Source of the DNA: Escherichia phage EC100
Sequence record: NC_105587.1
DNA: 64,000 nt
Direction: 5' to 3' (one strand)
Part shown: one piece after another, positions 3,635-35,946 of the stretch
Numbering within the stretch: position 1 is the stretch's first letter
Layout: each line of letters starts with the position of its first letter
Made by a program: the position numbers and the translations under genes
Notes under the pieces: model-generated
Database searches by the model: none
Seen by the model: the letters and a program-made list of their open reading frames with translations, nothing else
Told to the model about the DNA's origin: nothing

Positions 3635-4042
3635 TTATTCACCTGCGGCTTGTTTTACTTCATCTGCAACGCCTAACAGTTGCGCCACCGCGTCCAGCGT
3701 TTCCAGTTTAGCACTTTCAAGGCTTGCCAGATCATCGGCGTCTTTGATAATGCCGGAATCAATAGCATGTTTAGCGATAACGCGTACATAATGCGCTTTA
3801 CGGATTGAACTACCGCCGCCAACTTTGCGCGGCTTATCGCTTTTTTGATATGCTTTCGCGCTGGTCAATTTTGACCGAACGGATACAGGAGAAGCCGCGC
3901 CTACTGCTTTTGCAATCTCTTTCAGGCCGTCGCTATTTGCAAAATCTAAACCGTTTTCATTAATTAACTGCTGATACATGGAAACAGCTTTCTGAGTGTT
4001 TTCTTCATTCCATGCGAATTTTGCGGTTTTAGCGTTAGTCAT
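3635..4042 (-). CDS. A2: pre-early protein A2 (putative DNA-binding)
   Basis: 135 aa, immediately upstream of A1 in same orientation; shares leader motif with dmp and A1. Confidence 0.6.
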   Translation of the reverse strand: MTNAKTAKFAWNEENTQKAVSMYQQLINENGLDFANSDGLKEIAKAVGAASPVSVRSKLTSAKAYQKSDKPRKVGGGSSIRKAHYVRVIAKHAIDSGIIKDADDLASLESAKLETLDAVAQLLGVADEVKQAAGE

Positions 4043-4139
4043 GATAAAACTCCTATTAGTTTAATTTAAGGGATTAGATTAACTTAATGTTAATCGTTAT
4101 ATCCCCCTGAAATAAGAGGGATATAAAGTTAGCACTAAA

Positions 4140-4391
4140 TTATAAAACAGCTTCCCATTTTTCGTTGCGTTGAACAACCTTTACAACATCGCCGGATTTA
4201 ACGCGAACGCTAAAAACGGGTTTGCTGTTGTTACTGCGTTCCGTTTCAGCGTATACCGCGTCGATTGTATCAAACGGCATAAGCGCCGCGCCTTTAATAC
4301 GTTCGGCTTTTCCGGTTAATTCATCCGTTTTAGTAACGAAAGGAATAAAAACGGATTGACCAATTTTAGGCGCGGTAATAACGTTTTGCAT
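4140..4391 (-). CDS. hypothetical protein
   Basis: 83-aa ORF with AGGAG RBS. Confidence 0.5.
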   Translation of the reverse strand: MQNVITAPKIGQSVFIPFVTKTDELTGKAERIKGAALMPFDTIDAVYAETERSNNSKPVFSVRVKSGDVVKVVQRNEKWEAVL

Positions 4392-4617
4392 AATATAAAC
4401 TCCTAGTTATTTGGGGATTGTTCCGCATTACCTGCTAGAAAGTAGCAGGTAATAAGTAACAATCCGCTCGCCAATATAATCAATTTAAAGAACTCCACGT
4501 AGGCCGCTATATCCCGTTAGGGGGCGGGATGCTTTATGGTAAGCACCGACCGTCAAATTTTATCAAGTTATCGCTCTTTTCGAACTGGGTACATCTTAAA
4601 ACCTATCGGCTAGGCTG

Positions 4618-29554: not shown

Positions 29555-29630
29555 TGGAGCGGCTAGAGGGAATCGAACCCTACTCAGCGAGGCTTGGAAG
29601 GCCTGCGACACAACCCGTGTGCTTAACCGC
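29555..29630 (-). tRNA. tRNA-Gly (TCC)
   Basis: acceptor stem, anticodon loop CTTCCAA. Confidence 0.6.
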
Positions 29631-29638
29631 TTATTATT

Positions 29639-30470: not shown

Positions 30471-30565
30471 TTGGAGGTAGGTAAGGGGATCGAACCCTTA
30501 CACCGTATCACTACGATCAACCGATTTCAAGTCGGAGTCCAGCGCCAGCCATTGGATTGACCTAC
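30471..30565 (-). tRNA. tRNA-Ser (TGA), class II
   Basis: acceptor GGTAGGT/ACCTACC, long variable arm, anticodon loop CTTGAAA. Confidence 0.6.
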
Positions 30566-30577
30566 CATATAAGTTAT

Positions 30578-30668
30578 TTGGCGGAAGAGGAGGGATTTGA
30601 ACTCTCAAGCCGTTTTACCAGTCAGCCACTTTCCAAGCGGTTTTCGTCGCCAATTCGATTTGCTCTTC
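30578..30668 (-). tRNA. tRNA-Ser (GGA), class II
   Basis: acceptor GGAAGAG/CTCTTCC, long variable arm, anticodon loop TTGGAAA. Confidence 0.5.
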
Positions 30669-30689
30669 CAATAATAAGATGATGCCTCT

Positions 30690-30765
30690 ATCACACCAGG
30701 CAGTTACGCCTCGCTGGGATTCGAACCCATTAAAACAGCTCAACCGAGATAGTAGGTTTAATTTA
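30690..30765 (-). tRNA. tRNA-like element, identity unresolved
   Basis: canonical T-arm but no pairing acceptor partner found by hand. Confidence 0.3.
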
Positions 30766-30771
30766 CTCTGA

Positions 30772-30848
30772 CCATCAAATTTGGTGCGTGACAAGGGATT
30801 CGAACCCTCAAAACCCGACTTCTAAGGACGGTATGTATGCCAATTCCA
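30772..30848 (-). tRNA. tRNA, anticodon probably TAG (Leu?)
   Basis: acceptor GCGTGAT/GTCACGC and T-arm clear; D-arm atypical. Confidence 0.45.
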
Positions 30849-30853
30849 TCAAT

Positions 30854-30928
30854 CACGCGTATTTGGTGGACAAAGAGGGACTCGAACCCTCCCTACCAGA
30901 TTGCAAGTCTGGTGTGCTCCCGCTGACA
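30854..30928 (-). tRNA. tRNA-Ala (TGC)
   Basis: acceptor with G3-U70, anticodon arm CCAGA-CTTGCAA-TCTGG. Confidence 0.7.
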
Positions 30929-35868: not shown

Positions 35869-35946
35869 TGGTGGCTCCCCGAGGATTCGAACCTACGTAC
35901 CTTCCGGTTATGAGCCGGGTGCTCATACCATATGAGCTTGAGAACC
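35869..35946 (-). tRNA. tRNA-Met/Ile2 (CAT)
   Basis: acceptor GGTTCTC/GGGAGCC with G-U pairs, anticodon arm CCGG-CTCATAA-CCGG; weak T-stem. Confidence 0.5.

What the first reader, a model, noticed from the sequence alone, without database searches (positions are those of the whole stretch)
30690..30765. tRNA-like element with a canonical T-arm but no acceptor pairing
GGGTTCGAATCCC sits where a T-arm would be, positioned between two bona fide tRNAs, yet the 7 nt on each end cannot pair (CGCCTCG versus downstream sequence). It is either a tRNA pseudogene, a tRNA with unusual architecture, or a processing signal mimicking a tRNA.
Basis: seen in the sequence. Interest (0 to 1): 0.4.

Follow-up and report, generated by a model that had tools for sequence, protein, structure and literature searches.

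The report
Permuted tRNA-like RNA in phage tRNA cluster
The orphan "T-arm" is the core of a conserved, roughly 100-base folded RNA that imitates the body of a tRNA but has a looped-shut acceptor end and no anticodon; it is an unannotated tRNA-like RNA of T5-like phages, not a tRNA gene or a decaying pseudogene.

Summary
The window is Escherichia phage EC122, a T5-like phage. Its tRNA genes lie on the minus strand. A perfect T-arm (GGGUUCGAAUCCC, 30716-30728) sits in the 112-nt spacer between tRNA-Leu(UAG) and tRNA-Ser2. ARAGORN and the Rfam tRNA model both fail to call a tRNA there, and no acceptor stem can form.

The spacer is not junk. It is 99-100% identical in about 190 T5-like phages. It recurs directly after tRNA-Leu(UAG) in Klebsiella, Pectobacterium and Erwinia relatives, and in two T4-like Erwinia phages.

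Comparative analysis gives one fold. A closing stem (P1+P2) encloses a T-arm. The T-arm abuts a second hairpin built from the would-be acceptor 3' strand and the sequence downstream of it. In this fold 99.7% of cells pair and 14 of 23 pairs show compensatory changes, against 33-46% pairing in slid controls. G·U pairs place the structure on the tRNA-sense RNA.

The order stem, variable linker, T-arm, closed acceptor-like hairpin, 2-nt linker, stem is the circularly permuted tRNA layout known from bacterial YrlA Y RNAs. However, there is no D arm, no Ro60 gene and no Rfam YrlA match.

Function is inferred: either a stable tRNA mimic or a processing element. T5 itself carries an HNH endonuclease gene at this position.

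The parts
30782..30858 (-). Upstream neighbour: tRNA-Leu(UAG), 77 nt, ending in an encoded CCA. The element always follows this tRNA in T5-like phages.
   Evidence: ARAGORN; Rfam; annotated in ON185583.1. The same linkage is seen in Sugarlandvirus, DU_PP_V and SEL21.
30778..30781 (-). AAUU trailer between the Leu CCA and the element. CCAAAU follows the neighbouring tRNAs read here, and AAAUUU is invariant in every aligned copy of the T5-like family.
   Evidence: Sequence; alignments A2 and A3.
30773..30777 (-). P1 5' strand, UGAUG. It pairs with CAUCA at 30680-30684.
   Evidence: RNAalifold. In A4, 4 of 5 pairs are changed on both sides in IT22/Cronus (AGUGC/GCACU).
30757..30772 (-). Asymmetric internal loop GUCAGAGUAAAUUAAA. 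It is 16 nt here, 10 nt in the Klebsiella type and 7 nt in IT22. The first base varies freely (G/U/A); UCAG and the terminal AAA are conserved.
   Evidence: Alignments A2 and A3; IT22 alignment.
30748..30756 (-). P2 5' strand: CCU (P2a), bulged A (30753) and CUAUC (P2b). It pairs with GAUAG-AGG at 30685-30692.
   Evidence: 6 of 8 pairs show changes on both sides, e.g. CUAUC/GAUAG versus CGGCU/AGUCG, CCU/AGG versus CCC/GGG (phage KEY), and GUG/CAC (IT22).
30730..30747 (-). J1 linker UCGGUUGAGCUGUUUUAA, in the position of a tRNA variable region. It has an invariant GG and an invariant CUGUUUUAA just before the T-arm.
   Evidence: Alignment A3; IT22 alignment.
30715..30729 (-). T-arm: stem UGGG/CCCA and loop UUCGAAU, with the canonical U54 U55 C56 R57 A58 and the G53-C61 pair.
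   Evidence: Two of four pairs covary (UGGG/CCCA, CAGG/CCUG, CGGG/CCCG, with CGGG/CCUG as a G-U intermediate).
30695..30714 (-). AS hairpin, a closed acceptor-like stem that abuts the T stem with no spacer. 5' strand GCGAGGC, loop GUAACU, 3' strand GCCUGGU: 7 layers with one G-G mismatch. This is the 'unpairable' 3' acceptor strand of the finding, paired with downstream sequence.
   Evidence: RNAalifold. Changes seen: A-U to G-C, C-G to G-C (IT22), and G-U to G-C in natural SNP variants.
30693..30694 (-). Two-nucleotide linker GU between AS and the P2 3' strand, in the position of tRNA nucleotides 8-9.
   Evidence: Alignment A3. YrlA has a UA dinucleotide at the same place (bioRxiv 10.1101/312249).
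30680..30692 (-). Continuous 3' strand GAUAG-AGG-CAUCA of P2b, P2a and P1.
   Evidence: ORF insertions in other phages begin right after it, which marks the 3' boundary.
30670..30679 (-). A/U-rich tail UCUUAUUAUU, the 5' leader of tRNA-Ser2. It varies between lineages.
   Evidence: Alignment A2.
30579..30669 (-). Downstream neighbour: tRNA-Ser2(GGA), 91 nt.
   Evidence: Annotated in the phage 5 and BF23 expert records. Sequence. Missed by ARAGORN and Rfam.

Best explanation
The spacer encodes a structured RNA of about 98 nt (30680-30777, minus strand). It is transcribed as part of the polycistronic tRNA precursor: P13b promoter, RNA 2H, Ala, Leu, element, Ser2, Ser1.

Shown: its fold is a closed junction. 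A long terminal stem (P1+P2, 13 pairs, interrupted by a 16-nt asymmetric loop and a bulged A) carries an 18-nt linker and a canonical T-arm. Directly abutting the T-arm is a 7-layer hairpin whose 5' strand is the sequence that would be the acceptor 3' strand of a tRNA.

Inferred: the T stem (4 pairs) and this closed acceptor-like stem (7-8 layers) share a continuous strand. They can therefore stack into a helix of about 12 layers, the length of the acceptor/T arm of a tRNA. P2/P1 leaves the junction where the D and anticodon stems would. The RNA is thus a circularly permuted tRNA mimic, with its 5' and 3' ends at the anticodon side, the CCA end looped shut, and no D arm.

Inferred maturation: cleavage in the AAAUU trailer after the Leu CCA, RNase P cleavage at the 5' end of tRNA-Ser2, and 3' trimming back to P1 would release a stable RNA of about 100 nt with paired ends.

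Inferred function: it presents a tRNA elbow and T-arm to a tRNA-binding factor (TruB/TrmA, RNase P, or a host tRNA-directed enzyme) as a decoy or scaffold. It is accessory, because T5 proper lacks it.
For: Conservation: the spacer is >=99% identical in 166 records and 95-99% in 26 more. Nucleotide diversity is 0.007 across 23 loci, against 0.15-0.36 for the Ala, Leu and Ser1 flanks. Across genera the element is 69-76% identical, against 55-61% for Leu and Ser2.

Synteny: it lies directly 3' of tRNA-Leu(UAG), whichever of at least six Leu alleles is present, in Tequintavirus, Epseptimavirus, Sugarlandvirus, DU_PP_V and KEY.

Structure: on alignment A3, 99.7% of cells pair and 7 of 23 pairs are compensatory; slid controls pair at 31-46% with 0-2 compensatory pairs. 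Adding the T4-like phages IT22 and Cronus gives 14 of 23 compensatory pairs, reached by 0 of 500 shuffles on every measure. Six of seven natural SNPs that fall in stems keep pairing. The same architecture is the minimum-free-energy fold in IME260, KEY and DU_PP_V.

Strand: G-U pairs, for example 13 of 16 sequences at the first AS pair, would be A-C mismatches on the other strand. The structure therefore belongs to the tRNA-sense RNA.

Family reach: covariance model R1 finds IT22 and Cronus full length (36 bits, E about 4e-6), with every changed P1 and P2a pair changed on both sides. It also finds the T+AS core in a marine phage contig (31 bits).

Boundaries: unrelated ORFs of 76, 49 and 45 aa are inserted exactly after P1 in other phages.

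Transcription context: the BF23 record annotates no promoter or terminator between P13b and the downstream tRNAs, and the scan finds none on this strand.

Architecture parallel: YrlA has a T stem-loop at nt 33-49, a closed acceptor stem at 50-64 directly adjacent, and a UA dinucleotide. Its authors describe it as a circularly permuted tRNA (PMC4201824; bioRxiv 10.1101/312249).
Against: There is no expression, end-mapping or probing data. Everything is comparative.

In EC122 the proposed fold (-20.7 kcal/mol) is not the minimum-free-energy fold (-24.4). Its helices have only 0.16-0.39 ensemble probability, apart from the T-arm at about 0.65. The spacer folds no better than shuffles (z = 0.06).

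The covariation comes from few independent lineages, about six. A3 was aligned by hand in the 5' domain, and A4 is fitted to the model.

There is no D stem-loop, so the usual D-loop/T-loop elbow cannot form as in tRNA. The role of the invariant GG in J1 is a guess.

T5 itself, and many other T5-like phages, lack the element, so it is dispensable.

No binding partner is known. There is no Ro60 gene in the window, and E. coli K-12 has none (own knowledge).
Confidence: 0.6

Rival explanations
1. Cis-acting processing or folding element. The structured spacer has no function once released. It works in the precursor by insulating tRNA-Leu from tRNA-Ser2 so that each folds independently, and/or by offering a tRNA-like shape that guides RNase P, RNase E or exonucleases (tRNA punctuation). 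P1 also blocks 3' exonucleases.
For: The element always abuts the 3' end of tRNA-Leu(UAG) after an invariant CCAAAUUU. It sits in a polycistronic tRNA unit. It is followed by a tRNA or by small ORFs that would need separating from the tRNA. tRNA processing is proposed to cut neighbouring mRNAs in T4 and T5 tRNA clusters (PMC2330249).
Against: Other tRNA pairs in the same cluster are separated by only 5-10 nt with no such element, so insulation is not generally needed. The IT22 and Cronus copies do not follow a tRNA: none is found in the 265 nt before the IT22 copy. Conservation of loop and linker sequences (UCAG, AAA, bulged A, GG, CUGUUUUAA) goes beyond what a spacer hairpin needs.
Confidence: 0.25
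2. Decaying tRNA pseudogene. The 3' half of a former tRNA (T-arm plus acceptor 3' strand) was left behind after its 5' half was lost, and it drifts neutrally.
For: The T-arm plus 7 nt plus G resembles positions 49-73 of a tRNA. The element lies in a tRNA cluster. An origin from a tRNA or a tRNA dimer is plausible, as proposed for YrlA.
Against: Diversity is 0.007, as low as in the functional Ser2 gene. Compensatory changes occur in all four helices, including the T stem. The element is retained across two phage families. ORF insertions respect its boundary.
Confidence: 0.05
3. DNA-level element. The spacer would be a homing-endonuclease target or recombination joint, or a promoter, conserved because of gene conversion rather than RNA function.
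For: T5 has an HNH endonuclease ORF exactly here. The flanks are mosaic, with alternative alleles. Near-identity among about 190 phages could reflect sweeps. A TTGATG-N18-TACTAT promoter-like pair exists on the minus strand in EC122 (sequence).
Against: The stems contain G-U pairs that are strand-specific. Compensatory changes preserve pairing, not sequence. The promoter-like hexamers are absent from the Klebsiella type and were not picked up by the scan.
Confidence: 0.07
4. A real but highly aberrant decoding tRNA, or a permuted tRNA gene matured by circularisation.
For: It has a canonical T-loop and an acceptor-length AS. Mycobacterium smegmatis YrlA, which has a 7-bp AS, is cut by RNase P and receives CCA (PMC4201824).
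Against: There is no anticodon arm and no D arm. ARAGORN and the Rfam tRNA model give nothing. Bacteria lack the splicing endonuclease pathway used for permuted tRNAs (own knowledge).
Confidence: 0.03

Closest known systems
YrlA bacterial Y RNAs (Rfam RF02553): the tRNA-like effector module
   Same: The order of parts is the same: terminal stem carrying the 5' and 3' ends, variable linker or arm, T stem-loop with a canonical T-loop, a closed acceptor-like hairpin directly abutting the T stem, then a 2-nt linker. YrlA is described by its authors as a circularly permuted tRNA lacking a CCA end and an anticodon loop.
   Different: There is no D stem-loop after the acceptor-like hairpin. There is no GNCGAA(N)G Ro60-binding motif; the nearest sequence is GUCAGAG. 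No Ro60/TROVE gene lies nearby or anywhere in the window. The Rfam YrlA model gives no hit at E<=10. The element is embedded in a phage tRNA operon rather than beside rsr.
'tRNA-like RNAs with unknown functions' (RNA1, RNA2, RNA3) and stable RNAs (I, III, IV, 2H, X) annotated in the T5, BF23 and phage 5 tRNA regions; T4 species 1 and 2 RNAs (own knowledge)
   Same: These are small non-coding RNAs interleaved with tRNA genes in one transcription unit of the same phages, of unknown function and presumably released by tRNA processing.
   Different: This spacer is left blank in those expert records. The element has no sequence paralogue among them. It is absent from T5 itself, the phage for which cites counterpart tRNA sequences; that the stable RNAs were first characterised in T5 is own knowledge, not checked here.
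tmRNA tRNA-like domain
   Same: It has a T-arm and an acceptor-type helix but no full D arm, with one long helix taking the place of the anticodon/D stack. Rfam gave a weak local tmRNA match to the T-loop of the IT22 copy.
   Different: tmRNA has open 5' and 3' ends forming the acceptor stem, with CCA and G3-U70. Here the acceptor-like end is closed by a loop.
Circularly permuted tRNA genes (Cyanidioschyzon merolae and some archaea)
   Same: The 3' half (T-arm, acceptor 3' strand) precedes the acceptor 5' strand, and the two are joined by a short loop (PMC4033280 listed; own knowledge).
   Different: Those genes mature into normal tRNAs with D and anticodon arms. This element has neither.
tRNA-like processing signals (mascRNA of MALAT1, mitochondrial tRNA punctuation)
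   Same: A tRNA-like fold inside a longer transcript that could direct RNase P or RNase Z-type cleavage.
   Different: Those have an open acceptor stem. Rfam mascRNA did not match the element.

Membership tests
tRNA (RF00005) | Acceptor stem formed by the 5' and 3' ends, 7 bp, with the 5' strand about 48 nt upstream of the T stem | tested here: not met
   No partner beyond chance level at a proper distance. The 3' strand pairs with downstream sequence instead.
tRNA (RF00005) | T-arm with the U54 U55 C56 R57 A58 loop and the G53-C61 pair | tested here: met
   UGGG-UUCGAAU-CCCA at 30715-30729; the stem covaries.
tRNA (RF00005) | Anticodon arm and D arm; recognised by tRNA finders | tested here: not met
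   ARAGORN finds nothing. The Rfam tRNA model finds nothing at E<=10 in either a 13-kb or a 131-nt search.
YrlA Y RNA (RF02553) | T stem-loop followed directly by a closed acceptor-like stem-loop, with the RNA ends in a terminal stem (permuted tRNA layout) | tested here: met
   Structure supported by covariation. Layout compared with the published description.
YrlA Y RNA (RF02553) | Conserved D stem-loop 3' of the acceptor-like stem | tested here: not met
   Only GU separates AS from the P2 3' strand.
YrlA Y RNA (RF02553) | GNCGAA(N0-1)G Ro60-binding motif near the 5' end | tested here: not met
   The 5' region reads UGAUGGUCAGAGUAAA and the motif is absent. The motif definition is from PMC4201824.
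YrlA Y RNA (RF02553) | Encoded within about 4 kb of a Ro60/TROVE gene on the same strand | tested here: not met
   No ORF of 190 aa or more within 4 kb; the longest is a 187-aa plus-strand ORF that was not scanned. No TROVE domain in any ORF of 350 aa or more in the window.
YrlA Y RNA (RF02553) | Match to the Rfam covariance model | tested here: not met
   No YrlA hit at E<=10 on the element.
Neutral tRNA pseudogene | Unconstrained sequence drift and loss of pairing | tested here: not met
   Diversity 0.007; 99.7% pairing with 14 of 23 compensatory pairs.
Stable or tRNA-like RNAs of T5-type tRNA clusters | Non-coding, co-oriented and co-transcribed with the tRNA genes, conserved among T5-like phages | tested here: met
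   Orientation and position; only short spurious ORFs overlap it; conservation.
Stable or tRNA-like RNAs of T5-type tRNA clusters | Accumulates as a discrete stable RNA in infected cells | not testable with these tools
   No expression data are available. A Northern blot or small-RNA-seq is needed.

The most novel reading that the evidence does not exclude
The element founds an undescribed family of phage non-coding RNAs: circularly permuted tRNA mimics without a D arm, Y-RNA-like but independent of Ro60. The family is shared by Demerecviridae and some Straboviridae and marine phages. These RNAs would be cut out of tRNA operons and act in trans, presenting a tRNA acceptor/T-arm surface with no cleavable anticodon or chargeable end. 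A possible role is as a decoy or scaffold for a host tRNA-directed factor such as RNase P, a tRNA modification enzyme, the Rtc/Rsr RNA-repair system or a tRNA-targeting defence nuclease.
Probability: 0.25. Interest if true: 0.75.

Novelty: new variant of a known kind. Interest (0 to 1): 0.5.

Why it matters
T5-like phages carry the largest tRNA sets among classic coliphages, and their tRNAs are now linked to escape from tRNA-cleaving host defences. Their tRNA clusters also hold several tRNA-like RNAs that have had no known function for decades.

This work gives one such element a covariation-supported fold, precise boundaries and a family that spans two phage families. It also shows that the permuted tRNA layout known from Ro60-bound Y RNAs exists without Ro60.

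That makes the element directly testable by Northern blot, RNase P and TruB assays, pull-down and deletion. It also supplies a covariance model for annotating a spacer that is unannotated or mis-annotated in every record examined here, out of about 250 that contain it: left blank, or overlain by 'hypothetical protein' calls. If it proves to be only a processing spacer, it is a well-characterised curiosity.

Tried and rejected
1. A third hairpin, GGUGU/GCAUC, downstream of AS, suggested by the single-sequence minimum-free-energy fold. Rejected because natural variants GGCGU and GGUAU break it, whereas they fit the extended AS and the linker.

2. MAFFT alignment A2 misplaced the 5' domain by 6 nt. 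RNAalifold on it paired UC with GG. This was replaced by P2 (CCU-A-CUAUC with GAUAG-AGG), which is the minimum-free-energy fold in three lineages and covaries.

3. Promoter TTGATG-N18-TACTAT on the minus strand. It is not conserved in the Klebsiella type and was not found by the scan. No terminator was found either.

4. Coding potential. Only spurious ORFs of 20-59 aa overlap the spacer. The 'hypothetical protein' annotations in some records look like overcalls.

5. A 5'UTR for a downstream gene. The ORFs that follow the element in other phages are unrelated to each other.

6. Paralogues. None in the window, in the tRNA region of T5 st0 examined here, or among the other small RNAs.

7. Rfam. 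No family matches. The best hits are noise at 12-16 bits.

8. Wider homologues by pattern scans. IMG/VR added only Cronus. The metagenome scan was mostly chance or coding hits, plus one real core match (L076) and an unrelated marine repeat. The bacterial genome collection gave no credible hit.

9. Literature. No description of this spacer was found. The paper on the T5 endonucleases F-TflI, II and IV is not held.

10. A Ro60 partner. There is no TROVE ORF.

Full report
**Identity and context.** The window is Escherichia phage EC122 (ON185583.1, Tequintavirus, Demerecviridae), in the same coordinates as the record. All tRNA genes lie on the minus strand. The finding therefore has to be read as the reverse complement.

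**Checking the observation.** On the minus strand, GGGUUCGAAUCCC occupies 30716-30728. With one mismatch allowed, this motif occurs 7 times in the window against 0.02 expected. The other six copies are T-arms of tRNA genes: five called by ARAGORN and one (29568-29580) found only by Rfam. The motif lies in the 112-nt spacer (30670-30781) between tRNA-Leu(UAG) (30782-30858) and tRNA-Ser2(GGA) (30579-30669).

- ARAGORN calls nothing in the spacer.
- The Rfam tRNA model finds nothing there at E<=10, in a 13-kb search or in a 131-nt search. No other Rfam family matches.
- The 7 nt after the T-arm have no upstream partner beyond chance level at a tRNA-like distance.

**The spacer is under constraint.**

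- It is >=99% identical in 166 phage records and 95-99% in 26 more. The surrounding 400 bp is mostly only 80-95% identical.
- In 23 T5-like loci, nucleotide diversity is 0.007 in the element and 0.005 in Ser2. It is 0.15-0.36 in Ala, Leu and Ser1, which exist as alternative alleles.
- Diverged copies lie in the same place, directly after the CCA of tRNA-Leu(UAG). They occur in Klebsiella Sugarlandvirus phages, Pectobacterium phage DU_PP_V, Erwinia phage KEY and an Epseptimavirus, behind at least six very different Leu alleles.
- Between genera the element is 69-76% identical to EC122, against 55-61% for the flanking tRNAs.
- In several phages, unrelated small ORFs (76, 49 and 45 aa) are inserted between the element and Ser2. 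The insertion always begins right after ...GGCAUCA, which marks the 3' boundary.

**The structure.** Single-sequence folding of EC122 is uninformative (z = 0.06), so the model rests on comparison. RNAalifold on a first alignment recovered three features: the T-arm, an adjacent hairpin made from the 'acceptor 3' strand' and downstream sequence, and a terminal stem.

Folding each lineague separately showed that in IME260, KEY and DU_PP_V the minimum-free-energy structure also pairs CCU-A-CNNCU, which lies next to a conserved AAACCUAC motif, with the stretch just before GGCAUCA. The resulting model, in EC122 coordinates, is:

- P1: UGAUG (30773-30777) with CAUCA (30680-30684).
- A 16-nt asymmetric loop.
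- P2: CCU, a bulged A, and CUAUC (30748-30756) with GAUAG-AGG (30685-30692).
- Linker J1: 30730-30747.
- T-arm: 30715-30729.
- AS hairpin: 30695-30714, abutting the T stem.
- GU linker: 30693-30694.

On a structure-guided alignment of 16 distinct sequences, 99.7% of cells form standard pairs and 7 of 23 pairs have changes on both sides. Sliding the partners by 1-3 columns gives 31-46% pairing and 0-2 such pairs. Six of seven natural single-base variants that fall in stems preserve pairing. The freely variable base (G/U/A) at 30772 falls in the loop.

Many pairs are G-U, which would be A-C on the opposite strand. The structure therefore belongs to the tRNA-sense transcript.

In EC122 itself the model costs -20.7 kcal/mol against -24.4 for the minimum-free-energy fold, and has only 0.16-0.39 ensemble probability outside the T-arm. 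This is a weakness, but EC122's alternative fold is not conserved in the other lineages.

**Reach of the family.**

- A covariance model of the alignment (R1) finds exactly one copy in the window, even with filters off. It finds none in the T5 tRNA region.
- It finds a full-length match in the T4-like Erwinia phages IT22 and Cronus (36 bits, E about 4e-6). There P1 is AGUGC/GCACU and P2a is GUG/CAC: every changed pair is changed on both sides, and the bulged A, the GG and UUUAA are kept.
- With these two phages included, 14 of 23 pairs are compensatory and no shuffle reaches the observed values. That alignment is fitted to the model and so leans towards it.
- A marine phage contig carrying a tmRNA and tRNAs (L076) has the T-arm plus AS core (31 bits), closed by its own long stem.
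- Pattern scans of IMG/VR, metagenomes and 185,579 bacterial and archaeal genomes gave no further credible members.

**What it resembles.** The T stem (4 pairs) and AS (7 layers including one G-G mismatch, plus a possible G-U or U-A) share a continuous strand with no intervening base. Together they are about 12 layers, the length of the acceptor/T-arm stack of a tRNA. This is an inference from the secondary structure.

Reading round the junction gives: AS, a 2-nt linker (tRNA positions 8-9), one long helix where the D and anticodon stems would be and which carries the RNA's ends, a variable-region linker, and the T-arm. That is a circularly permuted tRNA body with a closed acceptor end and no anticodon loop.

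The published description of bacterial YrlA Y RNAs is the same in order and in the direct T/AS abutment: anticodon-like stem, variable loop, T stem-loop at nt 33-49, closed acceptor stem at 50-64, and a UA dinucleotide. YrlA then has a D stem-loop, binds Ro60 and is encoded next to rsr (PMC4201824; bioRxiv 10.1101/312249).

Membership in YrlA fails on every other defining feature:

- no D stem-loop;
- no GNCGAA(N)G motif;
- no TROVE gene;
- no Rfam YrlA hit.

The element works like, or at least looks like, a YrlA-type tRNA mimic, but it is not a YrlA.

**Relation to what is known in these phages.** The expert-annotated BF23 and phage 5 tRNA-region records list RNA1, RNA2 and RNA3 ('tRNA-like RNA with unknown functions') and the stable RNAs I, III, IV, 2H and X. 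They leave this 112-nt spacer blank. They place it inside the unit that starts at promoter P13b.

T5 itself has a 585-bp HNH endonuclease ORF (T5p062) between Leu1 and Ser2 instead of the element. This may explain why the element was not noticed, and it shows that the element is dispensable. I found no description of it in the searchable literature.

**Mechanism.**

- Shown: a conserved, strand-specific, covariation-supported fold with defined boundaries inside a tRNA operon.
- Inferred: release as a stable RNA of about 100 nt with paired ends. This would follow cleavage in the CCA-AAAUU trailer of tRNA-Leu, RNase P cleavage at tRNA-Ser2 and 3' trimming to P1. The RNA would then act through its tRNA-like T-arm and acceptor-like surface as a decoy or scaffold for a tRNA-binding factor.
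- Main rival: a purely cis-acting processing or insulating spacer. The evidence against it is that neighbouring tRNAs elsewhere in the cluster need no such spacer, that the IT22 copy does not follow a tRNA, and that loop and linker sequences are conserved.
- Poorly supported readings: pseudogene, DNA-level element and true tRNA.

**Verdict.** The element is best described as a new, unannotated tRNA-like RNA of T5-type tRNA clusters with a permuted, closed-acceptor architecture. It is a new variant of a known kind, of moderate interest, with function untested.

Noticed in passing
window 30476-30566, 30579-30669, 29558-29631, 35872-35946 (all minus strand): ARAGORN misses four tRNA genes that expert records annotate: Ser1, Ser2, Gly1 and Ile2. 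Rfam recovers Ile2 as a tRNA. It reports Ser1 and Gly1 only as tRNA-Sec matches below that family's gathering score (37.6 and 30.9 bits against 47). Ser2(GGA) is missed by both tools, and its T stem has an A-C mismatch.
   Followed up: partly
window 30782-30858 (minus): tRNA-Leu(UAG) is only 77 nt long and has no long variable arm, which is unusual for a bacterial-type tRNA-Leu. T5's own Leu1 allele is 85 nt. At least six very different Leu(UAG) alleles precede the same element in different phages.
   Followed up: no
L007 (T5 st0, AY692264) 4026-4610, minus strand: T5 carries an HNH endonuclease ORF (T5p062) between Leu1 and Ser2, where EC122 has the element. Its 3' end overlaps tRNA-Ser2. Whether the element or a flanking tRNA gene is its cleavage target is unknown.
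   Followed up: partly
L008 1026-1256; L009 1026-1256; L028; L059: The gap between the element and tRNA-Ser2 is a hotspot for insertion of unrelated small ORFs: 76 aa in mar004NP2 and TrudiRoth, 45 aa in DU_PP_V, and 49 aa in KEY.
   Followed up: partly
L057 (Erwinia phage IT22) 60-265; the same region in L058 (Cronus): About 200 nt of unannotated, strongly self-complementary sequence lie just upstream of the IT22 and Cronus copy of the element. One example is AAUUGAUAGCAGUG pairing with CACUGUUAUCAAUU. No Rfam match. This may be a larger structured RNA.
   Followed up: no
L064-L110 (about 30 marine metagenome contigs, e.g. L064, L073, L068): A repeated marine sequence family carries a T-arm, then GCG, then a GGAG-UAACUA-CUCC hairpin. 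One copy lies next to TTAGGG-type repeats, so the family is possibly eukaryotic. Model R1 does not match it.
   Followed up: no
L076 1874-2219 and 791-835 (minus): An uncultured marine phage contig encodes a tmRNA (92.7 bits), six tRNAs and a copy of the T-arm plus closed-acceptor core, closed by a long irregular stem.
   Followed up: partly
window 40158-40229 (minus): A tRNA-model hit (35.5 bits) lies inside the region that the BF23 record calls RNA X, a 784-nt stable RNA of unknown function next to tRNA-Arg.
   Followed up: no
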